Below the pieces are notes generated by a model. It saw nothing but the letters and a program-made list of their open reading frames with translations. It did no database searches and was not told the DNA's origin. DNA of 59,664 nt from Kiritimatiellia bacterium. GTDB taxonomy: Bacteria > Verrucomicrobiota > Kiritimatiellia > RFP12 > UBA1067. How positions within the stretch are numbered: position 1 is the stretch's first letter; every line of letters starts with the position of its first letter. The DNA lies in the NCBI GenBank assembly GCA_016284515.1, contig JAEEOY010000088.1, positions 1 to 59,664 of the forward strand. Reading direction: 5' to 3'. Made by a program: the position numbers and the translations under genes. Shown piece by piece: positions 3,458 to 25,261 of the stretch.

Positions 3458-3480
3458 GTATTTACCGGGGACTGTCCCCC
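3458..3480. repeat. GGGGACTGTCCCC palindromic element, copy 1
   Basis: GTATTTACCGGGGACTGTCCCCC; 22/23 identical to 5376-5398. Confidence 0.9.
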
Positions 3481-5368: not shown

Positions 5369-5375
5369 AAATCAA

Positions 5376-5398
5376 GTATTTCCCGGGGACTGTCCCCC
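5376..5398. repeat. GGGGACTGTCCCC palindromic element, copy 2
   Basis: GTATTTCCCGGGGACTGTCCCCC. Confidence 0.9.
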
Positions 5399-11562: not shown

Positions 11563-12477
11563 ATGAAGAAGCTTACGACACTCGCGCTCGCGGCGTTCGC
11601 GGCCGCAGCGGCTTTCGCTGAAGGCGGAAACCTCCGCTACTCCATCATGGTCAACAAGTTCGAGAACAAGGCCAACTGGCGCGGACAGTGGGAGCTCGGC
11701 GACGCGTGGGGCACGATTCTCACCGACCAGCTTGTTCAGAGCGGCAAGTTCATCGTCCTCGGCGAGGCAGACATGCGCGGCGCGGCGATGCAGGAGCAGG
11801 ACCTCGCGGCGTCCGGACGCACCGCCGGCGGCAAGAAGGCTCCTCAGATGGGACGCATGACGCCAGCCCAGCTGCTCGTCAAGGGCGCGATCACCCACGT
11901 GCAGGAGACGAAGGGCGGCAGCGGAGGCTTCTCGCTCGGAAAGGGCATCCTCAGCGGCGTGTCCATCGGCGGCAGCGCCGGCGGCGCGGAGATCAACATC
12001 ACGATCTACATCTGCGACTCCGCGACCGGACAGGTCAAGGCGTCCAAGAGCGTGATCGGCAAGAGCGGAAAGCGCGGCATCGGTCTCGGCTACCACGGCA
12101 ACAAGCTCGGCGGCCTCACCGGCGACCTCGAGGGTTTCGAAAAGGACAATATGGGCCAGGCCTGCACCGATGCAGTCGCCCAGGCCGTCGAATTCCTCGT
12201 CGCCCAGCTCGAGACGATTCCGTGGGAGGGCTCCGTCTCTCTCGTTAAGCCGGACAAGCTCCTCATCAACCGCGGTTCGCGTGAAGGCGTCGCGGTCGGC
12301 ATGAAGTTTGACATCGGCAAGGTTGAGGAGATCGTCGACGAGGATACCGGAGAGGTGCTCGACAGCGAGATGACCAAGATCGGCACGGTAGTCGTAACAG
12401 AGGTGAAGGAGAAGATCTCCTACACGACTCCGCTCGAGGGCGCCGAAAAGGGCATGGGCGTCCATCCCGCAAAGTAA
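11563..12477 (+). CDS. CsgG/HfaB family protein with C-terminal beta domain
   Basis: Signal peptide; LTDQLVQSGKFIVL, EQDLAASGR, AQLLVKGAIT; C-terminal LLINRGSREGVAVG. Confidence 0.8.
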   Translation: MKKLTTLALAAFAAAAAFAEGGNLRYSIMVNKFENKANWRGQWELGDAWGTILTDQLVQSGKFIVLGEADMRGAAMQEQDLAASGRTAGGKKAPQMGRMTPAQLLVKGAITHVQETKGGSGGFSLGKGILSGVSIGGSAGGAEINITIYICDSATGQVKASKSVIGKSGKRGIGLGYHGNKLGGLTGDLEGFEKDNMGQACTDAVAQAVEFLVAQLETIPWEGSVSLVKPDKLLINRGSREGVAVGMKFDIGKVEEIVDEDTGEVLDSEMTKIGTVVVTEVKEKISYTTPLEGAEKGMGVHPAK

Positions 12478-12625: not shown

Positions 12626-13282
12626 ATGGAGAAGACATTTAAGAGAAAGGCGCGGCAGGACGGCGTGGAGACGCGCGAGGCGATACTCGCTGCGGCGGAG
12701 GCGGAGTTCTCGGAGAAGGGCTTCGCGCTCGCCTCGGCGCGGGAGATCTGCCGCCGCGCGAAGGTCAACTCGGCTTTGATGAACCGCTACTTTGGCTCGA
12801 AGGAGGCGCTCTACCGCATTGTCGCGAAGCGGCTCTTCGGCGATCTCGGTGCGCCGCTTGCGCGGCTCGCGGACGGCGTGAAGGACGAAAAGTCGTGGCG
12901 TGCGGCTGTTAGCGAGTGGGTGGACGACATGCTCTTCATGACGCTTCCGACGGAGAAGGCGCAGAAGCTCTGCGCAGGGCTATTCCGCCACGAGGTGACG
13001 AGCCCCACGAAGTTCCACGCCGAGTTCAAGGAGTCGTTCGGACGTCCGGTATACGAGGGGCTGAAGAAGCTTCTCGCGATGAAGGTCAAGGACGACGAGC
13101 AGCTCGACCTCTGGGCGTCGTCCATCTGGGCGCAGGTTTCGGTCTATGCGCTTGCGGACGTCAAATGGCACGACTCCTTTAGGCCGAAGGGAATCGACAA
13201 CCGTGCCTGGGCCGAGAAGGTGAGAGACCACATCTGCGATGGAATCTTTGCATCGACAGCCGGGGAGAAATTAACCTTGTAG
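12626..13282 (+). CDS. TetR/AcrR family transcriptional regulator
   Basis: N-terminal HTH TREAILAAAEAEFSEKGF, REICRRAKVN, RYFGSKEALY. Confidence 0.92.
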   Translation: MEKTFKRKARQDGVETREAILAAAEAEFSEKGFALASAREICRRAKVNSALMNRYFGSKEALYRIVAKRLFGDLGAPLARLADGVKDEKSWRAAVSEWVDDMLFMTLPTEKAQKLCAGLFRHEVTSPTKFHAEFKESFGRPVYEGLKKLLAMKVKDDEQLDLWASSIWAQVSVYALADVKWHDSFRPKGIDNRAWAEKVRDHICDGIFASTAGEKLTL

Positions 13283-13340
13283 AACATGCAGAAAATGTAT
13301 CTACACGATCTACACGATCTACACGTTCTACACGGCTAAA
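13279..13340. repeat. Family B inverted 9-mer element (GTAGAACAT... / TCTACACGN x4, ending in CTAAA)
   Basis: gtagaacat gcagaaaat gta, then tctacacga tctacacga tctacacgt tctacacgg ctaaa; opposite arm also at 59404-59434. Confidence 0.85.
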
Positions 13341-13358
13341 CAATCAGGAGCAGAAGTA

Positions 13359-15404
13359 ATGAAAAACTCTTTTTTACCGCTTTATGTCACCAACTTCTTC
13401 GGGACGCTGAACGACAACTTCCTGAAGACGCTGGCGTGCCTGACCGTCATCGGATGGATTGCCGACGAGCGCGTGCGGTCGCTCCTGACGAGTGTTGTCG
13501 CGGGAATGCTCGTCCTGCCCTACATTCTCTGTTCGCCGCTTGCCGACCGGCTGACCGCCGTGTGGCCGAAGCGTCGGATCGTACGCGCGGCGAAATGGGC
13601 GGAACTTCCGATCATGGCCGTTGCGATTGCGGGCTTCGCGCTCCACTCACCGTGGTTCGTCATCGGCGCGGTTCTCCTGATGGGGCTTCAAAGCTCGCTC
13701 TACTCGCCCGCCAAGTACGCGCTTGTGCGCGACATCGGCGGCGCGGAGAGAATCTCGACCGGCATGGGCGGCATGGAGGGCGTCTCGTTTCTCGGCGTGC
13801 TGCTCGGCACTGTGGCGGGTGGCCTTGTGGCCGACCTTCAAGTCCGCCATTCCGAGTGGAATCTCGCCTACTGCTGCCTTGCGACATTCGCCGTGCTCGG
13901 CCTTGCGGCGAGCTACACAGTCAGGGCGAAAGAGGAGCTCAACCGCTCTTTCCACGCCATCAACCCGATTCGCTATATTGCCCGTGCCTACCGAATGGCC
14001 GGTCGCTACGACGGGCTCAATGCCGTCATCTTCACGCTCTCCGTCTTCTGGTGGGGCGCGGCGATGCTCCAGATGGGACTTCTCGTCTACGGCAAGTCGA
14101 AAGTCGGGCTAAACTTGAGCGACACCGGCACGGGGGTACTCCTTTGCGGCGCTGCCGTTGGCATCGTCGCCGGGCAGGTCATCGCCGGCTTTGTCGACAA
14201 ACGTCGCTTCCTTCTCGGCGCGACGCTCTTGACCGGCTGGATCGCCGCGGCGCTTTTTGCCGTTCTCTACTTCGTGCCGCTTTCGCCGACGGCGTTCGGC
14301 GTGGTGCTGGGGCTTCTTGCCTTCGATCTCGGCTTTTTCAAGCTGCCGTTCGACGCCGAGATACAGAAGGTCGTGAAGGGACCGAAGCTCAACACGATGC
14401 TTGCCTACTTCAACCAAGTGTCGTTTCTCTTCATGCTCGCGGCGAGCGGATGCTACGCGCTCGTGAGCTGGGCGTTCGGGCCGAAGGCGTTTCTCCTCTT
14501 GCTCGCGGTCGTCTTTCTCGTAGCGCCGTTCCTCTTCGTGTTCTGTTACCGCTCGGTTCTGCTGTGCGTCGGCCGCTGGGTCTTTGCCTGGAGATACAAG
14601 GTTGAGGTCGAGGATAAGACAGGATTAACAGGATTGACAGGATTAAGAGCTGGGGGAGATCCCCAGACCCCCGAAAATCTTGTTAATCCTGTAAATCCTG
14701 TCAAGAAAACATCGCTCCTCGTCTTGCCGAATCATCCGGCGATGGTGGACCCGATGCTCGTGGGCGTAACGTTCTGGAAGACGCCGCTTAAGCCGCTTTC
14801 AGACGAACTCTTCTTCCACACCGGCATCGTCGCTCCGCGCGTTTTGAAGACACTTGGCGCGGTGGCTGTTCCCGATCTTCGCAAGCACCGCACGGCGAAG
14901 GGCGCGACAATCGCGCGGGGTCTTGGCGACATCGTGAAGTCGACGCTTGAAGACGGCGGGAACGTCATCTTTTATCCCTCGGGGCACATCCAGACCGAGG
15001 GCGAGCAGGAAGACATCGGCACGCGCCAGCTCGCGTACAACATGTGCGGCGATCTGCCCGAGGGGGTGCGCGTCATTGGCGTCAGAACGCGCGGACTCTG
15101 GGGGTCGATCTGGTCGCGCAAGGGGCGCAAGAATTCGCCCTCGTTTGTGCCGACTTTCATCAAGAGCGTATTCCTGTGGTTCTTCTGGTCGCCGTTCGTC
15201 CCGCGCCGCCGCGTGACGATGCACATCGAGGACCTGACCGACCGCGTGAAGGAGTGGTCGAAGCTTACGCGGCTCGAGTTCAACCGAAAGCTGGAGGAGT
15301 GGTACAACGACGAACCACAGACCAACGCAGACGTGCCGTCGCTAACGCTCGGCCAAAATAACGCAAGCGTTAGCGCAGCGTTGTCTGCGAAAGTCTGTGG
15401 TTAA
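13359..15404 (+). CDS. MFS (LplT-like) transporter fused to a PlsC-like acyltransferase domain (Aas-like)
   Basis: TNFFGTLNDNFLK, LYSPAKYALV, ~12 TM helices; acyltransferase NHPAMVDP and FYPSG. Carries repeat-derived peptides at 14618-14702 and at the C-terminus. Confidence 0.85.
   Translation: MKNSFLPLYVTNFFGTLNDNFLKTLACLTVIGWIADERVRSLLTSVVAGMLVLPYILCSPLADRLTAVWPKRRIVRAAKWAELPIMAVAIAGFALHSPWFVIGAVLLMGLQSSLYSPAKYALVRDIGGAERISTGMGGMEGVSFLGVLLGTVAGGLVADLQVRHSEWNLAYCCLATFAVLGLAASYTVRAKEELNRSFHAINPIRYIARAYRMAGRYDGLNAVIFTLSVFWWGAAMLQMGLLVYGKSKVGLNLSDTGTGVLLCGAAVGIVAGQVIAGFVDKRRFLLGATLLTGWIAAALFAVLYFVPLSPTAFGVVLGLLAFDLGFFKLPFDAEIQKVVKGPKLNTMLAYFNQVSFLFMLAASGCYALVSWAFGPKAFLLLLAVVFLVAPFLFVFCYRSVLLCVGRWVFAWRYKVEVEDKTGLTGLTGLRAGGDPQTPENLVNPVNPVKKTSLLVLPNHPAMVDPMLVGVTFWKTPLKPLSDELFFHTGIVAPRVLKTLGAVAVPDLRKHRTAKGATIARGLGDIVKSTLEDGGNVIFYPSGHIQTEGEQEDIGTRQLAYNMCGDLPEGVRVIGVRTRGLWGSIWSRKGRKNSPSFVPTFIKSVFLWFFWSPFVPRRRVTMHIEDLTDRVKEWSKLTRLEFNRKLEEWYNDEPQTNADVPSLTLGQNNASVSAALSAKVCG
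14618..14702. repeat. Family A inverted element (ACAGGATTA x3 ... AATCCTGTN x3) inserted in frame in the CDS
   Basis: gacaggattaacaggattgacaggatt-N29-aatcttgttaatcctgtaaatcctgtc; translates as TGLTGLTGL...LVNPVNPV. Confidence 0.95.
15313..15402. repeat. Family C hairpin element copy 1 (forms the C-terminus of the Aas-like gene)
   Basis: Terminal IR AACCACAGAC/GTCTGTGGTT; inner IR CGCTAACGCT/AGCGTTAGCG; the final T begins the TAA stop. Confidence 0.95.
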
Positions 15405-15428
15405 AAACGAAGGATGATGAGATGAAAG

Positions 15429-15524
15429 AACCGCAGACGAACGCAGACGTGCCGTCGCTAACGCTCGGCAGAGATAAAGGAGGCGCAAGCGTAAGCGCAG
15501 CGCAGTCTGCGAAAGTCTGTGGTT
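15429..15524. repeat. Family C hairpin element copy 2 (also a 34-aa mini-ORF, 15422-15526)
   Basis: Near-identical to copies 1 and 3; ORF MKEPQTNADVPSLTLGRDKGGASVSAAQSAKVCG*. Confidence 0.95.
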
Positions 15525-15550
15525 AAACAATAAGCAAAAGGAGACAAGCT

Positions 15551-16027
15551 ATGGTAACAAAGGAAGAAACAGGTAAGATAATTGGCGTATGCATGGATGT
15601 GTTCCATGAACTTGGTTCAGGATTTCTGGAGCCTGTATACCAGGACGCGGCCGAGATAGCCTTCAGGCAGGCTGGCATTCCCTTTGTTCGCGAGGCGCAA
15701 TGTCCGATTTATTTCCGAGGTGTGAAGATCAATCGGAATTATGAGGCGGATTTTGTTTGCTATGGAGAAGTGATTCTTGAGTTCAAGGCGGTGAAGTGCT
15801 TTGCGCCGGAGCACAAGGCGCAGTTGATCAATTATCTCAAGGCGACACGCATTCCTCTTGGGTATCTCATCAACTTTCACGGTGAGAGGCTGATTTGGGA
15901 GCGCATCGTCTACACTTCGGCAGAGAGTAAACCGCAGACGAACGCAGACGGGCCTTCGCTAACGCTCGGCCAGGATAAAAAAGGCGCAAGCGTTAGCGCG
16001 GCGCAGTCTGCGAAAGTCTGTGGTTAA
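15551..16027 (+). CDS. GxxExxY protein (PD-(D/E)XK-like nuclease, PDDEXK_3), copy 1, with repeat-derived C-terminal tail
   Basis: GFLEPVY motif; YEADFVCYGEVILEFKAV; LLNYLKAT-like QLINYLKAT; GYLINF. Confidence 0.95.
   Translation: MVTKEETGKIIGVCMDVFHELGSGFLEPVYQDAAEIAFRQAGIPFVREAQCPIYFRGVKINRNYEADFVCYGEVILEFKAVKCFAPEHKAQLINYLKATRIPLGYLINFHGERLIWERIVYTSAESKPQTNADGPSLTLGQDKKGASVSAAQSAKVCG
15930..16025. repeat. Family C hairpin element copy 3 (3' end of GxxExxY copy 1)
   Basis: aaccgcagacgaacgcagac...gtctgcgaaagtctgtggtt(aa). Confidence 0.95.
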
Positions 16028-16070
16028 AAACGCAAAGAGGTATTAACAGGATTAAGAAAGGAGCGGAAGC

Positions 16071-17264
16071 ATGAATGTCAACAGAGTGTATGCCGAGGCG
16101 ATAGCGAAATGGGAAGGCGCCAAATCCTGGAGTGGCGACAAGGCGACAAAGCCGTTTGCCGTTCTGTGGGATGATCCGGAAAGCGGCGCGGACTTGAAGG
16201 TCGTGTACAGGACGCCGAAGGAAGAGGGCGTATCCCTGCTCCTGCTTGGGTTCGCGACATGTGTCGTCTTGGCGGCGATTACCGCTCTCCTTTGTCGTGC
16301 CTTTCAGCCAATGTGCGCCATCTTGATAGGCGTACCGCTAATCTTGGCTTTTGCTGTCATCGTGGTGGTTCGCGCCATGCGCCTTGGATGGGTTCGCATG
16401 GAGTATGAGTTCAGGCGAGGAATCGCCACCGTGCGCTATTCAATGGCGGAACACTGGAAGCGTGAGTGGTCGTTCCCCTACAACGACAGGACGAGGCTCT
16501 TCTCCCGCCTGCGGCCGTTCGCCTGTGGGTTCGTCATATCGGAATACGGATTTGTGGATGAGGCGGGCAGCGTCCTGTTTCGCACAAAGCAGGCGATGGA
16601 GCTTCCTCACTACGACTACTTCTCGCTTGTCGTGACGGGTTATCTTTCGCGCGACGAAGACGAAGATAAGTCCGCACGGGATATTGCGGAAAAGTATCGT
16701 GAATGCACTTTGCGTGACAAATCGCTGTCGAGAAAGTGGTGGGCTTTCGTTGTTGTTTCCGCTACGATTGTAATCGCCATGCAATTCATTGACAGCTGTA
16801 GAAAGCCGACAAAGGAAGAAGATCGTGTGCAGAAGGTGATATATGAGGCGTTCCTCAACGGCGGCGACTATCTGGCGGTTGCCGAGGCACAGAAGGCCAA
16901 GTGCGGCAATCGCGCGCAGAAGGGGATAGACGAGGTGTTGGATTACTGTGCGGAATTCTCGGCGGCGCGGCAAGAGCTGAAGGATGCGGGGGCGATTGAG
17001 GACGCTCGCAGTCGCCGTGAAGTGGCGCAGGGAGTAGCTTCAAGATTGCGCGAACGGGTAAAGGCGATGGAAGCCGTCAGACGCAGAAGCGTTGCCAATT
17101 ATGTCTTTGCCCATTCCTTCGAGGATCTGGTTGGGGTGGCCGAATCACTGCGTTCCGCTCCAGACGGCAAGGTAATCGTAATCATAAACGAGAACATGAA
17201 AACCATCATAAACGAGAACATGAAAACCGCCGCGCCGCAACAATCATCGGAGGAAACGAAATGA
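16071..17264 (+). CDS. Hypothetical membrane protein
   Basis: RBS AAAGGAG; three hydrophobic segments; lower GC than core genes. Confidence 0.75.
   Translation: MNVNRVYAEAIAKWEGAKSWSGDKATKPFAVLWDDPESGADLKVVYRTPKEEGVSLLLLGFATCVVLAAITALLCRAFQPMCAILIGVPLILAFAVIVVVRAMRLGWVRMEYEFRRGIATVRYSMAEHWKREWSFPYNDRTRLFSRLRPFACGFVISEYGFVDEAGSVLFRTKQAMELPHYDYFSLVVTGYLSRDEDEDKSARDIAEKYRECTLRDKSLSRKWWAFVVVSATIVIAMQFIDSCRKPTKEEDRVQKVIYEAFLNGGDYLAVAEAQKAKCGNRAQKGIDEVLDYCAEFSAARQELKDAGAIEDARSRREVAQGVASRLRERVKAMEAVRRRSVANYVFAHSFEDLVGVAESLRSAPDGKVIVIINENMKTIINENMKTAAPQQSSEETK
17181..17228 (+). repeat. 24-bp tandem duplication (IINENMKT x2)
   Basis: atcataaacgagaacatgaaaacc twice. Confidence 0.9.
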
Positions 17265-17308
17265 ATGCTCGGCTGATGTTTGCGCGGTGTGTCGCGGGAA
17301 GGTTTCTA

Positions 17309-17756
17309 GACAGGATTAACATGATTAACAGGATTAAGAATGATGAATATAGATGAATTATGCTATAAGGTCATTGGGGCTGCGATGGCAGTGCATCGGC
17401 ACTTTGGCCCCGGATACCTCGAGGAGGTGTATAAAAACGCCTTGATAGTGGAGTTGACGGCGCTTGGTATTCACACAGAAAAAGAAGTTCCCATTGCGGT
17501 TAACTACAAAGGCATTCGCGTGGGAGATTATAGGGCCGATGTAATAGTTGATAATCGACTCATTCTAGAATTGAAAGCTGTAACGAATATCAACCCAAGT
17601 CATGAGGCCCAGGTTGTGAACTATCTTAATGCGACTGGAATAGAGGATGGGCTCTTGATCAATTTTGGAGCGCACTCTCTTCAGCACAAACACAAATACC
17701 GTGTGTATCGCCAGCCGCAGGCTCTTAATCCTGTCAATCCTGTAAATCCTGTCTAA
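17309..17756 (+). mobile_element. Putative element: family A inverted arms enclosing GxxExxY copy 2
   Basis: Left arm 17309-17336 (GACAGGATTAACATGATTAACAGGATT); right arm 17727-17753 plus TAA. Mobility is inferred only. Confidence 0.55.
17340..17756 (+). CDS. GxxExxY protein (PD-(D/E)XK-like nuclease, PDDEXK_3), copy 2
   Basis: GYLEEVY motif; YRADVIVDNRLILELKAV; QVVNYLNAT; GLLINFG; ends in arm-encoded NPVNPVNPV*. Confidence 0.96.
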   Translation: MMNIDELCYKVIGAAMAVHRHFGPGYLEEVYKNALIVELTALGIHTEKEVPIAVNYKGIRVGDYRADVIVDNRLILELKAVTNINPSHEAQVVNYLNATGIEDGLLINFGAHSLQHKHKYRVYRQPQALNPVNPVNPV

Positions 17757-17826
17757 AAAACAAAAGGGAGAAGTAGAGATGAATATGCGAAAGAGATTTG
17801 CTCTGGGTAACGCGGGAAGGTTTTTA

Positions 17827-17902
17827 GACAGGATTAACAAGATTAACAGGATTATGAGAAGAGGATGGAAGTCTTAATCTTGTGAATCCTGTAAATCCTG
17901 TC
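17827..17902. repeat. Family A element, empty (about 22-bp loop)
   Basis: Left arm 17827-17853; right arm 17876-17902 followed by TAAA. Confidence 0.95.
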
Positions 17903-17928
17903 TAAAGCAGAAAAGGAAGGAAGCAGAA

Positions 17929-18132
17929 ATGATCAACGGAATGACATGGGGAATCTACTATCTGATTCTGTTTGCAGTTTCGTTTGCAGGCTGCCTTGGG
18001 TGGGCTTTGAAACTGATTCGCGGCAACAAGCAGGGGCGTGCGGTAATGGTGATGCTGCTGGGTCCGTTTTGCTTCGCCTCTGTAGTCTGGGTTGCAACAT
18101 TGATCGTCGTGCTTTGCATGTATGGTATTTAG
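17929..18132 (+). CDS. Small hypothetical membrane protein (67 aa, 2 TM)
   Basis: RBS AAGGAAGG; two hydrophobic helices; AT-richer. Confidence 0.65.
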   Translation: MINGMTWGIYYLILFAVSFAGCLGWALKLIRGNKQGRAVMVMLLGPFCFASVVWVATLIVVLCMYGI

Positions 18133-18160
18133 CCACAAAGAACACAAAGGTCACAAAGAG
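18131..18160 (+). repeat. CACAAAG 9-mer repeat arm
   Basis: agccacaaagaacacaaaggtcacaaagag, directly after the stop codon. Confidence 0.75.
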
Positions 18161-18197
18161 GAGCGGAGAAATGGAAATGAACGCGGGAAGGTTTTTA

Positions 18198-18434
18198 GAC
18201 AGGATTAACATGATTAACAGGATTTTAGCATGGAGAACAGGAGATACAGAAGATAGGGTTTTTGGCATGGAGAACAGGGGAAGCAGGAGGAAAACTGGGG
18301 TTGCCGCACCCTGCATTGACCCGCCTGCGGCGCTCGCTTCGCTCGGGGGATACCCAGCCCCCGCCGAAGGCGGACCTAAACTCTCCTGCATCTCTTGCTC
18401 TACCTGCTTAAAAAACAATCCTGTAAAACCTGTC
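18198..18434. repeat. Family A element with nested CAGGAG/CTCCTGC inverted arms
   Basis: Outer A arms; inner arms acaggaga.../ctcctgcatctcttgctctacctgcttaaa; near-identical to 19409-19607 apart from a ~40-bp insert. Confidence 0.92.
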
Positions 18435-18459
18435 TAAACAAAGACAAGGAGAAAGTGAA

Positions 18460-19311
18460 ATGAAACGAGTGATGGTTATGCTTGTGATTGTTGTGACCTG
18501 TCTGGCACAGCAGGGGTGTTATACGACCGTTGATCGCAAATGGCAATATTATGCATCAACAAAGTGGCTTTGGGAGAAGCGTCAATCTGGGCCTGGTGCC
18601 TGGTTTCCTGAAGTGCAGACCACTGGCGAGGGTATGTATCTTGTGGGATGTTTCATACCTGTGGTTGGCTGGGTTACGCTTTGCCCCGCTGGATTAGCGT
18701 TAGGTGTTGTTGAACGGTGTGTCGTAGCACCTGTGTTTGACACTGTTTGCCTTCCCATTGACTACATCAACAATGTGAATTATCGGATTGATGAAAAGCA
18801 CTTTAAGATTTTCGAGGACCGTCTTGATTCCGATTTGGATGCTGTTCTTGCGGATTCAATGTATTGGTCAGATCGGACAGATGACAAGTTCTGCTATTTG
18901 AGTCGGTGGCTTTCGCAAAACGGAGATAAGGTTGAATTGACGTCGAAACGTGTATCTGCGATACTATCACTTCTTGGGTGGTATGCAAAAGAAAGGAGGT
19001 GCCTGGATGATGAAATGTGGTCAATTTACCTGGAGATATTGAGGGTTATATACTACGATAAATCCTGCGAACGTGAAACGCTGACGGCATTGGCGAATTG
19101 GTTTGTTGAAATGAAGAATTCCACCAGAGTGTATGTGGATAGTTTTTTCCATGCTGGAATTTATCTCAGTCGTGAGGACTGGGTGAAGTTCACTGATGAA
19201 CAGTTGAAGGTTCTTCTGGATGCCGATATCATGAGTCTGGAGATAACGAGAGTTCTCAAGATACGCCAGGAAAAACGCGAAAAGGAAGCCAATGGGCAAA
19301 CCGTGGACTGA
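18460..19311 (+). CDS. Putative lipoprotein (N-terminus weakly YceK/YidQ-like), low GC
   Basis: Lipobox-like LAQQGC; PVFDTVCLPIDY; 23/60 G+C in line 18781-18840. Confidence 0.65.
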   Translation: MKRVMVMLVIVVTCLAQQGCYTTVDRKWQYYASTKWLWEKRQSGPGAWFPEVQTTGEGMYLVGCFIPVVGWVTLCPAGLALGVVERCVVAPVFDTVCLPIDYINNVNYRIDEKHFKIFEDRLDSDLDAVLADSMYWSDRTDDKFCYLSRWLSQNGDKVELTSKRVSAILSLLGWYAKERRCLDDEMWSIYLEILRVIYYDKSCERETLTALANWFVEMKNSTRVYVDSFFHAGIYLSREDWVKFTDEQLKVLLDADIMSLEITRVLKIRQEKREKEANGQTVD

Positions 19312-19408
19312 AGACTTCAAGTGTGAGTCAAAGTGCAAAAAGAGGAAAGGAGCAAACTTATGAATATGCGAAGAGGATTTGCTGCAGCTGCCGCGGGAAG
19401 GTTTTTTA

Positions 19409-19607
19409 GACAGGATTAACATGATTAACAGGATTTTTGCATGGAGAACAGGAGATGCAGAAGATGGTTTTTGGCTTGGAGAACAGGAGAGGCAGGAGGA
19501 AGACTGGGGTAGCCATCCCAGACCCCGCCGAAGGCGGACCTAAACTCTCCTGCATCTCCTGCTCTACCTGCTTAAAAAACAATCTTGTCAATCCTGTAAA
19601 TCCTGTC
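19409..19607. repeat. Family A element with nested CAGGAG/CTCCTGC arms (second copy)
   Basis: Left arm 19409-19435; right arm 19581-19607 followed by TAAAAAA. Confidence 0.95.
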
Positions 19608-19646
19608 TAAAAAAACAACTGGAACGAATTTCAAGGAGGAACAACA

Positions 19647-22085
19647 ATGAAAAGAATGATGTTTGCAGCTATGGTCGCCGCGGCGGCGTTTGCGCCGCTT
19701 GCGGGGCGGGCGGATGAGAGCCGCCTCAACCTCTGGCCGCTTGTCGGCTACGAAGATGGCGCGCTGGACGTCATCTGGCCGCTCGGACACTTCAAGGATT
19801 CGGACGAGTGGCGGTTCTTCCCCGTCATCATGGACCACGACCTCTTCTGCGTCTTCCCCGAGTTCTGGTTCATGGACGACGGTTTCGCCGTCCTGCCGTT
19901 CTACGCGAAGTACGACTTCAGGGAGGGCACGCTCTTCCCCGTGCTCTGGTGGGACCTCGCGGGCTCCGACAAGATGCACAGCGTCTTCCCGCTCTACTAC
20001 TACCATGGGCGCGAGAATGCGACGACCTTCTGGGCGGGCTGCGGACTTGCGGGCTACAAGCGCTACAACGACGAGACTTCCCACTGGCTTCTGCCGCTCT
20101 ACATGCGCACGGGGAGCGGATTCTACTCCATCCCGTACTCAAGGACGTCTCATTCCACGAGCAGGGACGAGGCGTATCTCTGCGGCTTCGCGGGGCGGAA
20201 GACCGCCCAGGACGGCACGACGTACGCGCACTGGTGCTTTCCGCTCTGGCACAAGGACCAGAACAGCTTCACTTCGCTGCCGTACCACCGCGAATGGGAC
20301 GACAAGGGGGAGACGACGTCATGGCTCTCCGTCCTTGCGCTCTCCGGCGGCTGGCGGGACCGTCCCTACTGGAAGGAGCGCTATCTCCTCGGCCTCGCCG
20401 GACGCAACAGGAACGACAAGAACGGATACAGCGACTCCTGGCTCGCGCCGTTCTACTACGCGGACAACCAGGGCACGCTCGTCACGCCCGTCTACGGTCA
20501 GGCCAAGACGGCGAAGTGGGGGCTTCCCGGGTGGTACACGGACGACCATACGTTCGCCTCTCCGCTCTGGTATAGCCATACGGACGACCAGAACCGCCTC
20601 GACCAGTGGATGGTTCCGCTCCTCCTGTCGGGCGGCGTCTACCGCGACGGCGTGCGCCGAAACGGCTTTCTCCTGAACGTCGCGGGCTGGATGTCGGGCG
20701 ACGACGGCTATTTCGCCTCGTGGTGCATGCCGCTCTACTTCAAGGACAGCGAGGGCACGTTCATCACGCCGCTCTACGGACGCAACAAGTCCTCGCAGTG
20801 GTGCTTCCCGCTCTGGTACAACGACGAGCGGTCGCTGTATTCCCTCCTCTGGTGCCAGAGGAAGGACGAAGCGGGCGAGCTCGAGTCGTGGGTGGCGCCG
20901 CTTCTCCTATCCGGCGGAAGGACGAAAAGCGACGGTACGCGCGAATCGGACATCCTCCTCGGACTCGGCGGCGCGACGTGGGGCGGCAAGGACGGCCTGC
21001 GCTCGAGCTGGGCGTTTCCGTTCTACTACGAGAACAGCGCGGGCGCGTTCGTGACGCCGCTCGGCGGCTGGAACCGGGACTCGAGCTGGATTCTGCCGCT
21101 TTTCTACACCGACAAGGAAGCCTTCGTCTCGCTCCCGTACATGCATGGCCGCAGCGAGTCCAAGAAGTCGGACACCTATGTCGTGCCGCCGCTTCTCTCG
21201 GGCTACACGAAGCACGACGACGGCCGCACGGACCTGTGCGCGCTCGTCCTGTACGGACACAGCCGCGGTGCGCAGGGCGAGACGCGCTACGACTACCTGC
21301 TGCCGCTCTACCACTACAACGGCGAGACGGGCGACTTCATCTCGCTCCCCTACGGCCGCGACGTGCGGGGCTCCTATACCAACACCTGGTGGGCGACGCC
21401 GCTCGTGGGCTTGCGCTCCGGGTCGAAGACGGGCGGCTGGCTGTTTCCGCTCTTAAACCGCCGGAAGGACGCCTCCTTCGACAAGGACCTTGCGCGGATG
21501 GATTCGCCTACGATCCCGGACGACATCACGTTCTCGGATCAGGTGAAGTGCTGGACGAACGGCGAGGGGAGGGTGTGCTTCCGCACGAACTGCATTGCCT
21601 CGGCCCGGATCGACTCCGAGGCGCGCGGCTCGGTGCTGCTGGCGTCCGACCACGACCATTGGGTCTATAGCGGCGTCTCCTGCGGGGAGAAGGAGTATAC
21701 GCTGCACGAGGGCTCCAAGCAGGGCAACCGCATTTTCTTCAACAGCGAGTCCTCGCGTACGGTGACGTACGACATCCCTTCGCGCCGGAAGAAGGGCGAG
21801 AGGTCCGACTCCGAGACGATGGCGCTCTGCGGACTCTTCTACAGCGAGCACAGGGAAGACTCGATGAAGGGTACGTCGCATACGCATACGCGCGTCCTCT
21901 GGAAGCTCTGGGACCGCGAGGAGCGCGACGGCAACGTGACGGTCGATGCCTTCCCGGGCTTCACCTACGACTCGAAGAAGAACGGCTATTCGAAGACCTC
22001 GTTCCTCTGGCGGTTCTTCCGCTACGAGAACGATCCCGAGAAGGGGAAGAAAGTCGACCTCTTCTTCATCCCCGTGTGGAGGTGA
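19647..22085 (+). CDS. Secreted aromatic-rich repeat protein of unknown function
   Basis: Signal peptide; recurrent W/F-x-x-P-L/F-Y motifs, e.g. SWLAPFYYADNQGTLVTPVYG, SWCMPLYFKDSEGTFITPLYG, SWAFPFYYENSAGAFVTPLGG. Confidence 0.85.
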   Translation: MKRMMFAAMVAAAAFAPLAGRADESRLNLWPLVGYEDGALDVIWPLGHFKDSDEWRFFPVIMDHDLFCVFPEFWFMDDGFAVLPFYAKYDFREGTLFPVLWWDLAGSDKMHSVFPLYYYHGRENATTFWAGCGLAGYKRYNDETSHWLLPLYMRTGSGFYSIPYSRTSHSTSRDEAYLCGFAGRKTAQDGTTYAHWCFPLWHKDQNSFTSLPYHREWDDKGETTSWLSVLALSGGWRDRPYWKERYLLGLAGRNRNDKNGYSDSWLAPFYYADNQGTLVTPVYGQAKTAKWGLPGWYTDDHTFASPLWYSHTDDQNRLDQWMVPLLLSGGVYRDGVRRNGFLLNVAGWMSGDDGYFASWCMPLYFKDSEGTFITPLYGRNKSSQWCFPLWYNDERSLYSLLWCQRKDEAGELESWVAPLLLSGGRTKSDGTRESDILLGLGGATWGGKDGLRSSWAFPFYYENSAGAFVTPLGGWNRDSSWILPLFYTDKEAFVSLPYMHGRSESKKSDTYVVPPLLSGYTKHDDGRTDLCALVLYGHSRGAQGETRYDYLLPLYHYNGETGDFISLPYGRDVRGSYTNTWWATPLVGLRSGSKTGGWLFPLLNRRKDASFDKDLARMDSPTIPDDITFSDQVKCWTNGEGRVCFRTNCIASARIDSEARGSVLLASDHDHWVYSGVSCGEKEYTLHEGSKQGNRIFFNSESSRTVTYDIPSRRKKGERSDSETMALCGLFYSEHREDSMKGTSHTHTRVLWKLWDREERDGNVTVDAFPGFTYDSKKNGYSKTSFLWRFFRYENDPEKGKKVDLFFIPVWR

Positions 22086-22105
22086 CAGCAAAGGAAAATG
22101 TGAAA

Positions 22106-22217
22106 ATGTGCAATTATCCAATATCCAGTATCCATTATCCAATATGCTGTATCCAGTATCCGATGATGGCGGAGAGATGTTGAGTATTGGCTATTGGATA
22201 TTGGATATTTGCACATT
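22106..22217. repeat. Inverted 7-mer (TATCCAN / TATTGGA) hairpin element, empty
   Basis: aatgtgcaa + tatccaa tatccag tatccat tatccaa ... tattgga tattgga tatt + tgcacatt. Confidence 0.85.
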
Positions 22218-22274
22218 GAACAAAAGATATTTGCACATTAAACAAAAATAGAACAACCTAAACAAAGGAGTGAA

Positions 22275-23174
22275 ATGACAATGGCTATAATGGCGGCGAC
22301 GGTGTGGTTCATCCCCGGGTGGCTCCGTTCGGAGAAGCCCGCGGACGGCGTCCTGGAGTGCGTCTCGAACGCATTCCCGACGGCGCAGGTCGAGTTCAAG
22401 GCGTGGGACGGCGACAACGTCGTCTGGCCGCTCTCGGTCGATTCGGCGGACAAGGAGTCGTGGCGCTTCGCGTTCGAGATCGCGATGATGCCGAAGGAGG
22501 AGCGCGAGTCGCTCACGCTTATCGGACACTCCCTCGGTGGACGCATCATCGCGCGCATCCTCGCGCGCCTCGAAGAGCACGGAATGAAGATACGCCAGGC
22601 GATACTTATGGGCGCGGCGATTCCGTCCGACGACCCCGACCTCGAGAAGATGGGCCGCGCAAGCGCGCTCCCGGTTCTTGCCGTGTGCAATCCGGACGAC
22701 GTCGTGCTGCGGTACGTCTACACGATGGTTGGCGCCGTGGTGGGCGGGGAGAAGGCGACGGCGTTCGGGGCGAACGGAACGCTGAGCCCGTGCGAGAACG
22801 TGGTCGAGTGCGTGACTCCGACGAACATAACTCGCCAGGTCGAGATTGGCGAGAAGTGGGCGAAGGTTTCCGCGTTGAAGGACATCGCAAACCACCACGA
22901 GAAGTTCTACATCGGATACGCCAAGCGCCTTCTCGACGGCGAGGAGCCGACGGGCAAGGTGATGGTTCCGCAGGGCTTCCCCGGCGTAGAGGGGCATGTA
23001 ATGGATTCGATGGTCTGGTGGGACGTCCTCGATTCGTCGGGCGGATGGAAGCTCGAGAAGAATAAGGTGACGGGCCACTGCCGGATCATAGACCCAGACA
23101 AGCTTCGCACTGCCTGGGGCCGCGAGGCGGAGATGCGCTCGGCGTTTGAGAAGGTGAAACAACAATTGAAGTAA
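22275..23174 (+). CDS. Alpha/beta hydrolase (DUF726-like) with a small C-terminal domain
   Basis: Nucleophile elbow GHSLGGR; ILMGAAI; NPDDVVLRYVY; C-terminal WWDVL...GWKLEKNKVTGHCRIID. Confidence 0.75.
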   Translation: MTMAIMAATVWFIPGWLRSEKPADGVLECVSNAFPTAQVEFKAWDGDNVVWPLSVDSADKESWRFAFEIAMMPKEERESLTLIGHSLGGRIIARILARLEEHGMKIRQAILMGAAIPSDDPDLEKMGRASALPVLAVCNPDDVVLRYVYTMVGAVVGGEKATAFGANGTLSPCENVVECVTPTNITRQVEIGEKWAKVSALKDIANHHEKFYIGYAKRLLDGEEPTGKVMVPQGFPGVEGHVMDSMVWWDVLDSSGGWKLEKNKVTGHCRIIDPDKLRTAWGREAEMRSAFEKVKQQLK

Positions 23175-23191: not shown

Positions 23192-25261
23192 ATGGGAATA
23201 GTAGTGATTGGCGTATTGGCCGTGCTCAGCGTTCCGATCATGCTGATTGTGGCTCTCGTTAAGCTGTCCTGGATAGAAGACCAGCTGTCGTCGCTCTGCA
23301 AGAAGATCGAGATAGCCGATGTCTCCAGAAATCTCAAGTCCGTGCCAAAGCCGGCCGCGCCGGTAAAAGACAATGCGGAGGAAACCGAAATGAAGAATCG
23401 AATTGAGAAGCAGGAAATGACTGGGGGAAGCGGCGTCTCGCCGCTTCAGGAAAGAGGAAATGTCATTGTTGTAGAGAAGCGCCGGGACGGCGCTTCCCCC
23501 AGTCAGGAAGAGGATGTTTACGAGAAGCGCCGGGACGGCGCTTCCCCCAGTCAGGAAGAGGATGTTTACGAGAAGCGGCGGGACGGCGCTTCCCCCAGTC
23601 AGAATGACGATTCATATGAGCCGACGGCGCTCGACATCTTCTGGATGCGCGTCGAGGACTGGTTCGCCGTGCGCGGCGACTTCGCGCCGAAGGGGATGAC
23701 GCACGAATTCGCCTTCGCGACGCGCTGGCTCGTGCGCGTAGGCGTGGCGCTGATCGTTGGCGCGATCATCTACTTCGTGAAGCTGTCGATCGACCGCGGA
23801 TGGATGGGTCCGACGGGACGCGTCGTCGCGACGCTCGCCTGTGGCGCGGCATTCAGCGTCGGCGGCTCGTGGCTCGTGAAGAAGGAGAGGTACTCGCTTC
23901 TCGGACACGCCATCGCCGCGCTCGGAGTCGTTGCGCTGTACCTCGGTTTCGGACTCGGACACCGCTTCTTCGATCCACCCGTGATCGCGTCGCCCGTGAT
24001 CGCGTTCTGCGCGCTCGCGGCGGTGACGTTCTGCGCAGGCGTGATGTCCGTCTACCTCCGTTCGCCCTACATCGCGGTGATGGGACTCGTCGGCGGATAT
24101 CTCGTCCCGGTGATCGCAGGTCGCGACAGCGGATTCCCGCTCTGGTTGGATGCGTATCTCCTCGTCCTGAACCTCGGCGCGTTCTACGTCGCGCGGATGC
24201 GCAGGTGGTCCGCGCTCGACTTCCTCGCGTCGATGCTTGCGTTCGCGATGTGCTGCATCTGGGGCGCGCGGCATCCGGAATTCGGCGGACGCGCCGCAGT
24301 GCTCGTCAACTTCGCGTTCCTCTCGGCCGTCCACGCGCTCTACATGACGAGCGTCATGGTCGGCTCGAGGATGCGCAGCGAGTCCGAGGACGCCATCGCG
24401 TGGGCCGGGCTCTCCGTCAACGCATGCTGCTATTTCGGATGGCTCGCGTGGGTCTTCCGCGCCGGATTCGCCGACCGCGCTACGGGGGTTGTGCTGCTCG
24501 CGCTCGTCGCCGCGTATTTTGCCGTCGCGTATCTCGCGACAAAGCGCGGTTGGGCGGACCGCGCGACCGTTGGCATACTCGTGGTCTTCGCGCTTACGTA
24601 TCTGTCCATCGTGCCGCTCCTGCTGTTCAGCCGTCCGTGGTGCGTCGTCTCTTGGTCCGTCCTCGCCGTCGCGACGGCGGAGGCCGAGTCGCGCAGCCGT
24701 CAGCGCATTCTCGGCATCGCCTCGTTTCTGCTTCTCGCGGCCGCGGCGTGGTCGGGCATTCTTTACTACGCGCCCCTCGCGTACTGCCAGCGCTCGGTCT
24801 ATGCGCTGACGGCGCTTTCCGGAGGGGAGTATTTCGTCGAGTTCGCGCTGCGGCTCGTGCGGCTCTGGACTCTTCCCGCGGCGGCCGTGTTTGTCGCGCG
24901 GCGACTCAGGGTCGACGCGCTTGCCATCGCCGCGCTCATCGTCGCGTTCCTATTCTTCACGGGGGAGGCGCGCAACTTCGGATACGTCTTCTTCCCGTCG
25001 CTCAAGACGGGTATGGTGTCCGTCGCGTGGCTGATTGCCGCGTTCGGCGGACTCTGGGCGGGCATCGTCTTCCGCAGCCGCCTGTCGCGCATCTGTTCGC
25101 TCTCGCTTCTCGGCGTCTCCGTCGCTAAGGTGCTCGTCATCGACACCGCGCACCTCACGACTCCGGTCCGCGTCGCGCTCTTCGCGCTCTCCGGCGTCCT
25201 CCTCATCGTCGGCGCGTTCCTCTACATGAAGTTCAGGGAAAGGTTCGAAGACAATGCGTAA
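23192..25261 (+). CDS. DUF2339 family multi-pass membrane protein
   Basis: EFAFATRWLVRVG, IYFVKLSID, GWMGPTGRV; C-terminal KVLVIDTAHL...RVALF; REP-derived linker. Confidence 0.85.
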   Translation: MGIVVIGVLAVLSVPIMLIVALVKLSWIEDQLSSLCKKIEIADVSRNLKSVPKPAAPVKDNAEETEMKNRIEKQEMTGGSGVSPLQERGNVIVVEKRRDGASPSQEEDVYEKRRDGASPSQEEDVYEKRRDGASPSQNDDSYEPTALDIFWMRVEDWFAVRGDFAPKGMTHEFAFATRWLVRVGVALIVGAIIYFVKLSIDRGWMGPTGRVVATLACGAAFSVGGSWLVKKERYSLLGHAIAALGVVALYLGFGLGHRFFDPPVIASPVIAFCALAAVTFCAGVMSVYLRSPYIAVMGLVGGYLVPVIAGRDSGFPLWLDAYLLVLNLGAFYVARMRRWSALDFLASMLAFAMCCIWGARHPEFGGRAAVLVNFAFLSAVHALYMTSVMVGSRMRSESEDAIAWAGLSVNACCYFGWLAWVFRAGFADRATGVVLLALVAAYFAVAYLATKRGWADRATVGILVVFALTYLSIVPLLLFSRPWCVVSWSVLAVATAEAESRSRQRILGIASFLLLAAAAWSGILYYAPLAYCQRSVYALTALSGGEYFVEFALRLVRLWTLPAAAVFVARRLRVDALAIAALIVAFLFFTGEARNFGYVFFPSLKTGMVSVAWLIAAFGGLWAGIVFRSRLSRICSLSLLGVSVAKVLVIDTAHLTTPVRVALFALSGVLLIVGAFLYMKFRERFEDNA
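23419..23600. repeat. Four 29-bp REP-like palindromes in frame within the DUF2339 gene (1 forward, 3 reverse at a 48-bp period)
   Basis: GACTGGGGGAAGCGGCGTCTCGCCGCTTC at 23419; reverse-type copies at 23476, 23524, 23572; identical intergenic copy at 59454-59482. Confidence 0.93.

What the first reader, a model, noticed from the sequence alone, without database searches (positions are those of the whole stretch)
13279..23174. Candidate new system: GxxExxY nuclease genes within a cassette array punctuated by inverted 9-mer-repeat hairpins
SEEN: between the TetR gene and the DUF2339 gene, almost every gene boundary is occupied by a palindromic element built from ~3 copies of a 9-mer and its inverse. 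In order: B(13279) - Aas-like gene - C,C - GxxExxY-1 - C - membrane gene - A-left - GxxExxY-2 - A-right - empty A - 67-aa gene - nested A - lipoprotein - nested A - 812-aa gene - 7-mer hairpin - hydrolase. Right arms of the different 9-mer families all end in (C/T)TAAA, which supplies a stop codon, and are usually followed by an A-rich tract, an RBS and the next gene. KNOWN: GxxExxY proteins (TIGR04256/PF13366) are small PD-(D/E)XK-fold proteins of unknown function. INFERENCE: these proteins may recognise or cleave the hairpins and drive gene capture, shuffling or element spread, an integron- or REPIN-like system with no integrase or HUH transposase in the window.
Basis: partly seen in the sequence, partly recalled or inferred. 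Interest (0 to 1): 0.9.

Follow-up and report, generated by a model that had tools for sequence, protein, structure and literature searches.

The report
Hairpin-armed GxxExxY nuclease cassettes
Small nuclease genes of unknown function (GxxExxY) sit between inverted arrays of short repeats here and in many other bacteria; they and gene-less hairpin copies behave like insertion elements, and genes are reshuffled at the hairpins, so this may be an undescribed kind of mobile DNA.

Summary
Between TetR and DUF2339, 8 of 9 gene boundaries carry very stable hairpins whose arms are 2-4 tandem 7-10 nt units, in families A, B, C, D and a 7-mer family. One more A copy sits in frame inside the Aas-like gene.

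Three results go beyond the window:
1. GxxExxY genes are generally bracketed by such inverted arms. This held in 50 of 74 diverse metagenomic loci, against 13% of neighbouring genes. Polarity is fixed (38:3) and the unit sequence is specific to each subfamily. The ACAGGATT arms persist at 48-51% protein identity and in other phyla. A cultured Sphingomonas carries such a unit between fabD and fabG.
2. The gene-less hairpins show presence/absence polymorphism, nest in one another and can be read through in frame.
3. In close relatives (about 90% nt identity) the TetR-to-DUF726 interval differs in gene content and order, with breakpoints at arm edges.

GxxExxY-2 models as a RecB/Cas4-like PD-(D/E)XK nuclease with its catalytic residues intact. 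I found no description of this in Rfam, the PDB or the searchable literature.

Nuclease action on the arms is inferred, not shown. A RAYT-like HUH gene in relatives remains a rival, as does plain homologous recombination. An integron-like mechanism is not supported.

The parts
13271..13339 (.). B hairpin. Left-arm units are GTAGAACAT-like; the right arm is TCTACACGA x4 ending in CTAAA. The TetR stop codon (TAG, 13280-13282) lies in the left arm.
   Evidence: z -4.7. The same element follows TetR in L211 and L214.
13359..15404 (+). Aas-like gene (MFS/LplT domain plus acyltransferase), 681 aa. It carries two element-derived segments.
14618..14704 (.). A hairpin inserted in frame in the interdomain linker. 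It is read as TGLTGLTGL...NLVNPVNPV and has no stop codon.
   Evidence: z -8.8. It is absent from at least 31 orthologues and replaced by other inserts in some.
15313..15402 (.). C hairpin fused to the 3' end of the Aas-like ORF. It adds about 30 codons and supplies the TAA stop.
   Evidence: z -8.0. Absent in L210 and L214.
15429..15524 (.). Second C hairpin, intergenic, with its own ATG and a 34-codon ORF.
   Evidence: z -6.0
15551..16027 (+). GxxExxY-1 (158 aa). Its C-terminal 32 residues and its stop codon are encoded by a C hairpin.
   Evidence: Relatives at 61-63% identity (L129, L130) have C-like arms.
15930..16025 (.). Third C hairpin, inside the 3' end of GxxExxY-1.
16045..16056 (.). 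Remnant of the inner end of an A left arm (AACAGGATTAAG), followed by the RBS of the membrane gene. The same junction precedes the 115-aa gene in L210.
16071..17264 (+). 397-aa membrane-protein cassette gene with no family match.
17261..17339 (+). Conserved leader plus the A left arm (arm at 17303-17339). The leader has an ATGA start/stop overlap with the upstream gene and a short ORF ...AGRFLDRINMINRI.... The arm abuts the GxxExxY-2 start codon.
17340..17756 (+). GxxExxY-2 (138 aa), a RecB/Cas4-like PD-(D/E)XK fold. Its tail NPVNPVNPV and its TAA stop are the A right arm.
17722..17759 (.). A right arm (AATCCTGT x3, then CTAAAAA).
17781..17906 (.). Leader plus a gene-less ('empty') A hairpin (hairpin at 17821-17906).
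   Evidence: (z -6.3)
17929..18132 (+). 67-aa membrane peptide cassette gene. It occurs in other array positions in L209 and L214.
18192..18437 (.). Nested element: A arms enclose a D element (GGAGAACAGGAG... / ...CTCCTGC...TTAAA), which encloses a GC hairpin.
18460..19311 (+). 283-aa lipoprotein-like cassette gene.
19402..19614 (.). Second nested A/D/GC hairpin.
   Evidence: z -8.7
19647..22085 (+). 812-aa cassette gene. Its homologue lies upstream of the Aas-like gene in L209.
22105..22217 (.). Hairpin built of 7-mer units (TATCCAA / TTGGATA), ending in ATTAAAC. It is conserved before the DUF726 gene in L211.
   Evidence: z -7.3
22275..23174 (+). DUF726-like alpha/beta hydrolase, the conserved right border of the variable interval.

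Best explanation
The interval is a chromosomal hotspot colonised by hairpin-armed insertion elements of two kinds.

(i) Full units. A GxxExxY nuclease gene is bracketed by inverted arrays of 2-4 tandem 7-10 nt units. GxxExxY-2 has A arms and GxxExxY-1 has C arms.

(ii) Short gene-less copies of the same arms, which are MITE/REPIN-like hairpins.

Both kinds are built to sit harmlessly inside co-directional operons. A T-run comes before the hairpin and an A-run after it, so there is no terminator on either strand. The right end carries a TAA stop and is followed by an A-rich tract and an RBS. The purine-rich left arm abuts the next start codon.

Inferred mechanism. Each GxxExxY protein recognises the unit arrays of its own arms and cuts at or near them. 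This copies the unit and mobilises cognate gene-less hairpins in trans, as RAYT is thought to do for REPINs. The many near-identical copies then serve as junctions for recombination. That recombination moves, deletes and adds the genes lying between them and gives a cassette-like array.

What is shown: the anatomy, the conservation, the polarity, the insertion polymorphism and the breakpoints. What is inferred: the catalysis, the recognition of the arms, and who does the mobilising.
For: Anatomy and excess over chance.

Gene and arms form one unit.
- Nearly all of the 120 closest homologues (68-92% identity) keep the NPVNPV tail, and over-extended gene calls start in the left arm.
- DNA of L001, L003-L005, L007 and L008 shows both arms.
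- 50 of 74 diverse loci (40-63% identity to GxxExxY-1) have inverted arms scoring above every shuffle. The figure for neighbouring genes is 13%.
- The unit sequence differs by subfamily (CACGAAT, CGCAGAT, ACGGATT, CGCGAAT, ACAGGATT), but both arms of a gene always change together.
- Polarity of arms relative to the ORF is 38:3.
- Proteins only 48-51% identical still carry ACAGGATT arms.
- In 120 A-type loci from many phyla, the two hairpin loops of about 400 nt, the size of a GxxExxY gene, both hold a GxxExxY gene (L028, L103).

Insertion behaviour.
- The in-frame A element is present or absent among orthologues of 81-96% identity, and other inserts occupy the same site.
- A fabD-[arms+GxxExxY]-fabG arrangement occurs in Sphingomonas parapaucimobilis. 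The site is empty in S. paeninsulae and other alphaproteobacteria.
- The genes are co-oriented with their neighbours, 42:4 upstream and 34:6 downstream.
- Cognate units are enriched elsewhere in the same loci, 0.52 against 0.14 per kb.

Reshuffling at the arms.

Nuclease. The model has pLDDT 89.8 and the arm-encoded tail is disordered. The best structural matches are Cas4 SSO0001, lambda exonuclease, RecE and AdnAB. E28, D67, E77, K79, Q91 and Y95 are invariant or nearly so.

The hairpins are not terminators.
Against: - No biochemical or in vivo evidence links the protein to the arms.
- No target-site duplication or clean empty/filled pair could be resolved. The junctions show replaced sequence rather than a simple insertion.
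- 118 of 120 A-type hairpin loci have no GxxExxY gene within the DNA held for the locus. Whether those genomes encode a cognate one elsewhere could not be tested.
- In the Kiritimatiellia relatives, orphan A left arms with the leader also precede genes that are not GxxExxY: 115 aa, 117 aa and about 155 aa.
- 24 of 74 GxxExxY loci showed no arms with my ungapped test.
- A Y1_Tnp-like gene lies in the same interval in relatives.
- Reshuffling needs nothing more than RecA acting on 90-130 bp repeats.
Confidence: 0.5

Rival explanations
1. REPIN/RAYT system. The hairpins are REP doublets mobilised by an HUH Y1 (RAYT-like) transposase encoded elsewhere in the genome. GxxExxY genes are passengers that became trapped in hairpin loops or prefer to insert there.
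For: - Relatives carry a 369-382 aa Y1_Tnp-like gene (HUH motif; 24.8 bits against a cutoff of 23) inside this very interval, and its 3' end is a B right arm. L001 has another (30.9 bits, with a C-terminal HTH) 5 kb from a GxxExxY unit.
- B units contain GTAG, the head typical of REPs (PMC3733652).
- Nesting shows that hairpin loops are favoured insertion sites.
Against: - No Y1 homologue occurs in the 59.7-kb window, nor in any of the 200 loci fetched by the two collection scans (L009-L208).
- A and C arms lack GTAG/CGTC heads and are arrays of short units, not single 20-40 nt palindromes.
- Arm type follows the GxxExxY subfamily across phyla, with fixed polarity. A passive passenger would not be expected to do this.
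- The Y1 gene in relatives itself carries an in-frame hairpin insert.
Confidence: 0.2
2. RNA-level operon punctuation plus ordinary homologous recombination. The hairpins act in the polycistronic mRNA, in stability, RNase III processing, or translational coupling and masking of the GxxExxY start. They spread and shuffle genes only through RecA-dependent recombination and horizontal transfer. GxxExxY has some other role, for example an RNA or DNA nuclease for defence or addiction.
For: - Co-orientation with operons is strong.
- There is a conserved leader with an RBS, an ATGA overlap and a short ORF running through the left arm.
- The arm abuts the start codon and contains SD-like AGGA/GAGG.
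- No terminator is formed.
- Breakpoints lie within or at repeats long enough for homologous exchange.
- ORF-containing hairpins excised at the RNA level are known from 23S rRNA intervening sequences (PMC4990558).
Against: - Stem mismatches show no excess of G:U over A:C on the sense strand (32 against 38, p = 0.55). The commonest mismatches are A:A and T:T at the spacer between units. Selection therefore seems to act on the units rather than on a continuous RNA helix.
- The same 8-nt unit is conserved across phyla where flanks and loops differ.
- Different elements have inserted independently at one coding site. Recombination between resident repeats does not explain first arrival.
Confidence: 0.2
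3. An integron-like or CALIN-type array. The hairpins are attC-like sites recombined by a site-specific recombinase, and the genes are captured cassettes.
For: The array consists of co-oriented genes separated by hairpins, and its content varies between close relatives.
Against: - None of the 20 window genes scanned is an integrase.
- The arms are symmetric unit arrays without the R''/L''/L'/R' organisation or the GTTRRRY core (sequences).
- Single units also insert alone into unrelated operons and into coding sequence.
- Several unrelated hairpin families share one array.
Confidence: 0.05

Closest known systems
REP/REPIN elements with their RAYT (HUH Y1) transposases (PMC3116915, PMC3337134, PMC3733652)
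   Same: - Short palindromic intergenic repeats in many copies.
- A small enzyme gene flanked by its own cognate repeats.
- Repeat sequence that co-varies with the enzyme lineage.
- Clustering and local amplification.
   Different: - The enzyme is a RecB/Cas4-like PD-(D/E)XK protein, not an HUH enzyme.
- The arms are arrays of 7-10 nt tandem units, not a single imperfect palindrome with a GTAG/CGTC head.
- The arms directly abut the start and stop codons of the gene.
- Two GxxExxY genes lie within 2 kb here, and one unit type is shared across phyla.
Bacterial MITEs that tolerate transcription and translation: Rickettsia palindromic elements (in-frame in ORFs) and Correia/NEMIS elements (named from my own knowledge of the field)
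   Same: - Hairpin-forming elements of about 60-220 nt with terminal inverted repeats.
- Inserted within operons and, in frame, within coding sequence.
- Presence/absence polymorphism.
   Different: - Here a candidate autonomous partner shares the arms.
- The arms have an internal tandem-unit architecture.
- The ends carry a built-in stop codon and an A-rich tract.
Integron cassette arrays and CALINs (named from my own knowledge of the field)
   Same: Co-oriented genes, mostly of unknown function, are separated by hairpin-forming sites, and the array content varies between strains.
   Different: - There is no IntI and no attC architecture.
- Several hairpin families are mixed in one array.
- The elements also occur singly, outside arrays and inside genes.
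23S rRNA intervening sequences that carry a small ORF (S23p / PF05635; PMC4990558)
   Same: A small ORF of unknown function lies in the loop of a long stem made by inverted flanks. The whole is regarded as a selfish insertion in a transcribed unit.
   Different: The host context is mRNA operons rather than rRNA, the protein fold is different, and excision at the RNA level is not shown here.
Free-standing or intron-borne PD-(D/E)XK homing endonucleases (e.g. I-Ssp6803I) and IS elements that target REP loops (IS1397, ISPpu9; PMC8450116)
   Same: There are precedents for a small PD-(D/E)XK nuclease driving its own spread, and for insertion into hairpin loops.
   Different: No intron, transposase or defined target site has been identified here.

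Membership tests
GxxExxY protein family (TIGR04256 / PF13366 PDDEXK_3) | Profile score above the curated cutoff | tested here: met
   TIGR04256 gives 128.5 and 142.5 bits (cutoff 35). PF13366 gives 122.7 and 138.5 bits (cutoff 22).
GxxExxY protein family / PD-(D/E)XK nucleases of the RecB-Cas4 type | GxxExxY motif, the catalytic D...ExK, a QxxxY motif, and the alpha-beta nuclease core fold | tested here: met
   G25, Y31, D67, E77, K79, Q91 and Y95 are invariant and E28 nearly so. The model has pLDDT 89.8. The top PDB matches are Cas4 4ic1 (E 5e-5), lambda exonuclease, RecE and AdnAB. Activity was not tested.
REPIN/RAYT | An HUH Y1 (RAYT) gene flanked by the cognate repeats | tested here: not met
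   No Y1 homologue occurs in the window (tblastn). The genes flanked by A and C arms are GxxExxY. A Y1_Tnp-like gene in relatives abuts a B arm on one side only, so family B remains open.
REPIN/RAYT | REP is a 20-40 nt imperfect palindrome with a GTAG or CGTC head (PMC3733652) | tested here: not met
   A arms (TAGACAGGATT...) and C arms (AACCGCAGAC...) have no such head and are unit arrays. B units do contain GTAG.
Integron / CALIN | An adjacent IntI tyrosine recombinase | tested here: not met
   There were no integrase hits among the 10 array genes or the 10 flanking genes scanned. Not every ORF of the window was scanned.
Integron / CALIN | attC architecture (R''-L''...L'-R' with a GTTRRRY core and extrahelical bases) | tested here: not met
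   By inspection of the arm sequences. There was no Rfam match, but I did not check that Rfam holds an attC model.
Integron / CALIN | Co-oriented cassettes separated by hairpin sites and variable between strains | tested here: met
MITE | A short non-coding element with terminal inverted repeats, in several copies, with presence/absence polymorphism | tested here: met
MITE | Target-site duplication | tested here: inconclusive
   The filled/empty comparisons show replaced or diverged junctions. All ends lie in T-run/TAAA sequence, and no duplication could be defined.
MITE | An autonomous partner with the same ends that encodes the mobilising enzyme | not testable with these tools
   The structural half is met: GxxExxY units share their arms with gene-less copies. 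Whether the protein mobilises them needs experiments.
Intrinsic terminators | A GC-rich hairpin followed by a T-run on the transcribed strand | tested here: not met
   13 sites were found against 13.1 expected, and none coincides with the elements. The elements have the T-run before and the A-run after.

The most novel reading that the evidence does not exclude
GxxExxY proteins form a pan-prokaryotic family of at least 30,000 clusters at 50% identity with no assigned function. In this reading they are the nucleases of a hitherto unrecognised class of mobile element. Each lineage recognises its own arrays of 7-10 nt units, moves its hairpin-armed gene cassette, and mobilises cognate gene-less hairpins. 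As a by-product it builds integrase-free cassette arrays in which host genes are exchanged at the hairpins.
Probability: 0.35. Interest if true: 0.9.

Novelty: new variant of a known kind. Interest (0 to 1): 0.8.

Why it matters
GxxExxY/PDDEXK_3 is a very large family: 30,767 clusters at 50% identity at E<=1e-3. The only functional statement found for it in the searchable literature is 'unknown' (PMC3424549).

The regular association shown here gives a concrete, testable function: a nuclease acting on its own arms. The association has three features. The arms are polar, they are specific to each subfamily, and gene-less hairpin copies of them exist.

It would also explain several puzzles:
- the odd peptide tails seen in annotated proteins (NPVNPV, SVTSV, SADSAD and the like);
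- read-through fusion proteins;
- fragmented metagenome assemblies around these genes;
- strain-level hotspots of gene turnover.

If the nuclease is sequence-specific for short tandem units, it is also a candidate source of new DNA-recognition modules.

If the rivals hold instead, the finding still documents two things. One is a cross-phylum hairpin element with a conserved 8-nt unit. The other is a mechanism-agnostic way in which repeats create cassette-like arrays.

Tried and rejected
- **Exact look-up of window proteins.** They are not on record, so relatives were reached through homologues.
- **Rfam.** The gathering search found only a tRNA. The permissive search found only spurious miRNA hairpins.
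- **PDB by sequence.** No match.
- **Phage and plasmid collections.** There was no DNA match for the GxxExxY-2 unit in plasmids and no protein match in phages. Plasmid and chromid records did give eight annotated GxxExxY genes in isolates.
- **Literature.** Nothing was found on the motif strings or on GxxExxY, PF13366 or TIGR04256 function. Subscription journals are not covered.
- **RNA-versus-DNA test by wobble asymmetry.** No bias was seen, so it does not decide between RNA, ssDNA and dsDNA.
- **Target-site duplication.** It could not be resolved.
- **Terminator hypothesis.** Rejected.
- **Chance or low complexity.** Rejected.
- **Sequencing or assembly artefact.** Rejected because the same elements occur in frame in independent assemblies and in finished genomes of isolates.
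- **Genome scan for the A motif.** By my own estimate the whole collection would give about 70 chance matches, yet most of the 120 loci (48 with the plain left-right arrangement) have the inverted partner arm nearby.

Full report
**1. What is in the window**

The window has 62% G+C. Its genes are chromosomal housekeeping genes: fucose isomerase, GH2, an aminotransferase, PheT and a tRNA. Close homologues of its proteins are labelled Kiritimatiellia in public records.

From 12.6 to 25.3 kb all genes are on the + strand:
- TetR
- an MFS-acyltransferase (Aas-like) gene
- GxxExxY-1
- a 397-aa membrane protein
- GxxExxY-2
- a 67-aa peptide
- a 283-aa lipoprotein-like protein
- an 812-aa protein
- a DUF726-like hydrolase
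- DUF2339

The A motif occurs 19 times against 0.01 expected, all within 5 kb. As single strands the elements fold with z-scores of -4.7 to -8.8.

They have a T-run before the stem and TAAA plus an A-run after it. No terminator is therefore formed on either strand, and a terminator scan shows no excess.

The right-end TAA is the stop codon actually used by the Aas-like gene, GxxExxY-1 and GxxExxY-2. The TetR stop lies in the B left arm.

It sits exactly between the two domains and is read as TGLTGLTGL...NLVNPVNPV.

**2. The GxxExxY gene and its arms are one unit, far beyond this window**

The 120 closest homologues of GxxExxY-2 (68-92% identity) nearly all keep the NPVNPV(NPV) tail. Gene calls that start too early begin with DRINRI, which is the left arm. 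Variants such as DRIYRI with NSVNSV change both arms together. DNA from six contigs shows both arms, in unrelated operons.

A metagenome scan with a family alignment gave 80 diverse loci at 40-63% identity to GxxExxY-1.
- In 50 of the 74 loci with enough flank, the region just upstream of the start and the region at or after the stop form an inverted repeat stronger than any shuffle.
- Non-cognate pairings have a median score of 8 against 14 for cognate pairs.
- Only 13% of neighbouring genes pass the same threshold.

The unit differs between subfamilies (CCACGAATT, CCGCAGATT, ACACGGATT, CGCGAAT, ACAGGATT, AATCTGA). It shares a loose CRSRRA(T) pattern.

The purine-rich version lies on the sense strand upstream of the ORF in 38 loci against 3. 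The pattern was derived from the same data, so it is descriptive.

The genes are co-oriented with their neighbours, 42:4 upstream and 34:6 downstream.

Proteins from other lineages that are only 48-51% identical to GxxExxY-2 still have ACAGGATT arms. GxxExxY-1 is 39% identical to GxxExxY-2 and has C arms, as do its 61-63% relatives.

In cultured Sphingomonas parapaucimobilis, a unit with CGCGAAG arms sits between fabD and fabG. S. paeninsulae and other alphaproteobacteria have the short empty spacer there.

**3. The gene-less hairpins are insertion elements**

The 120 stretches came from Acidobacteriota, Verrucomicrobiota, Kiritimatiellia, Chloroflexota, Bacteroidota, several proteobacterial classes and a Methanoperedens MAG.

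Most have the inverted partner arm, at a median distance of 42 nt. In this sample, loops of about 400 nt, the size of a GxxExxY gene, occur twice (L028, L103), and both hold a GxxExxY gene. The stems often extend a few bases beyond the units, using sequences that differ between genomes.

Among 120 orthologues of the Aas-like protein (81-96% identity):
- at least 31 lack the in-frame insert;
- many have it, some with a longer loop;
- some carry unrelated inserts at the same site.

The C element that extends the Aas-like ORF is absent in L210 and L214.

Elements nest inside each other's loops: A contains D, which contains a GC hairpin.

**4. The interval is a hotspot reshuffled at the arms**

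Four relatives sharing about 80-95% nucleotide identity in common genes have different gene sets and orders between TetR and the DUF726 gene.

The module A-left/GxxExxY-2/A-right/empty-A lies after the 397-aa gene in the window. In L209 and L220-L222 it lies directly before the DUF726 gene. The 67-aa gene and the 812-aa homologue also change place.

Alignments place the breakpoints at the inner end of the A left arm (window 17340), about 10 nt outside it, and immediately after the terminal CTAAA of the empty A. Almost every boundary in all four arrays carries A, B, C or D arms.

In this lineage a conserved leader runs into the A left arm. It consists of an RBS, an ATG and a short ORF ending ...GRFLDRIN.INRI. 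Orphan left arms with this leader also precede genes that are not GxxExxY.

**5. The protein**

The GxxExxY-2 model is confident (pLDDT 89.8), and the arm-encoded tail is disordered.

The best structural matches are Cas4 SSO0001, lambda and LHK exonucleases, RecE and the AdnAB nuclease domains, with TM about 0.5 on the query.

The motif residues expected of a RecB-type active site are invariant. These are the E of GxxExxY, D67, E77-x-K79 and Q91xxxY95.

The family has 30,767 clusters at 50% identity. Many members have arm-derived tails or are read-through fusions.

**6. Mechanism and rivals**

I favour a model (about 0.5) in which each GxxExxY nuclease acts on the unit arrays of its own arms. 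The gene-less hairpins are non-autonomous derivatives, and the repeats then mediate cassette exchange.

The argument has the same form as the one that linked REPs to RAYTs: cognate repeats flank the enzyme gene and co-vary with it.

What is shown is the structure, the conservation, the polarity, the polymorphism and the breakpoints. The catalytic step is inference.

Stem mismatches show no sense-strand G:U excess (32 against 38) and cluster at the spacers between units. This points to selection on the units as binding sites rather than on a continuous RNA helix, but it does not exclude RNA roles.

The rivals are:
- a RAYT-like HUH enzyme, because a Y1_Tnp-like gene lies in this interval in relatives and abuts a B arm;
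- RNA-level punctuation plus RecA recombination;
- an integron-like system, for which the defining features are absent.

**7. Comparison and novelty**

The system works most like REPIN/RAYT and like translation-tolerant MITEs. It fails the membership tests for REPIN/RAYT (no HUH gene, no GTAG head on A and C) and for integrons (no IntI, no attC).

No Rfam family, solved structure or searchable paper describes the arms or assigns a function to GxxExxY. I therefore rate it a new variant of a known kind, with a substantial chance of being a new class of mobile element.

Noticed in passing
window 23418-23601 (inside the DUF2339 ORF) and 59454-59485: Another palindromic repeat family (GACTGGGGGAAGCGGCG...). 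One left arm and three right arms at 48-nt spacing lie in frame in the DUF2339 gene, giving the peptide repeat EKRRDGASPSQEEDVY three times. A further copy lies near the end of the window.
   Followed up: partly
window 59280-59356 and 59587-59664: A near-identical direct repeat of about 78 nt, 307 nt apart, at the very end of the window. It lies next to B-like units (59411-59433). Its nature is unknown.
   Followed up: no
window 3358-3440, 3467-3479 and 5385-5397: Two copies of a 36-nt palindromic block (CACCTCGCGAGGTACCCTATGCCTACCTCGCGAGGT) lie between the fucose isomerase and GH2 genes. The small palindrome GGGGACTGTCCCC recurs after both genes.
   Followed up: no
window 5330-5375 and 35024-35090: Orphan arm-like tandem units without an inverted partner. 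The first is CTCTGCG x3 ending in TTAAAAAA. The second is GTCGTTA x3 followed by CAACCTT x5 with an internal TTAAAA. They are probably half-elements of further families.
   Followed up: no
L210 8853-10001; L211 4401-5510 (hairpin at L211 4625-4716); L001 15587-16705: Relatives carry Y1_Tnp-like (HUH) genes of about 370 aa. The one upstream of the Aas-like gene ends in a B right arm. It also contains an in-frame GC-rich hairpin insert just after its HUH motif.
   Followed up: partly
L216 (Sphingomonas parapaucimobilis NZ_CP155749.1) 2467-2932: A GxxExxY gene with CGCGAAG arms is inserted between fabD and fabG of the conserved fatty-acid synthesis operon. The site is empty in S. paeninsulae (L219).
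   Followed up: yes
proteins P0241, P0245, P0249 and others; P0256, P0265, P0269, P0272: Many family representatives are 250-295 aa with two GxxExxY domains. Others are read-through fusions, via an NPVNPV arm, to a downstream protein whose N-terminus looks like a prepilin type (FT.LELLV).
   Followed up: no
L210 about 11885-11935 and L214 about 11890-11925: Directly after the last conserved codon of the Aas-like gene, each lineage has a different orphan unit array (CGCAGAG x3, or CGCAAAGNA x3). An A arm follows. The gene's 3' end is therefore a recurrent insertion or exchange point.
   Followed up: partly
L209 7355-9060 and 19031-20775: The DUF2157-GDYXXLXY gene pair occurs twice in the variable array of the closest relative, and alpha/beta-hydrolase genes also occur twice. 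Segmental duplication has taken place within the array.
   Followed up: no
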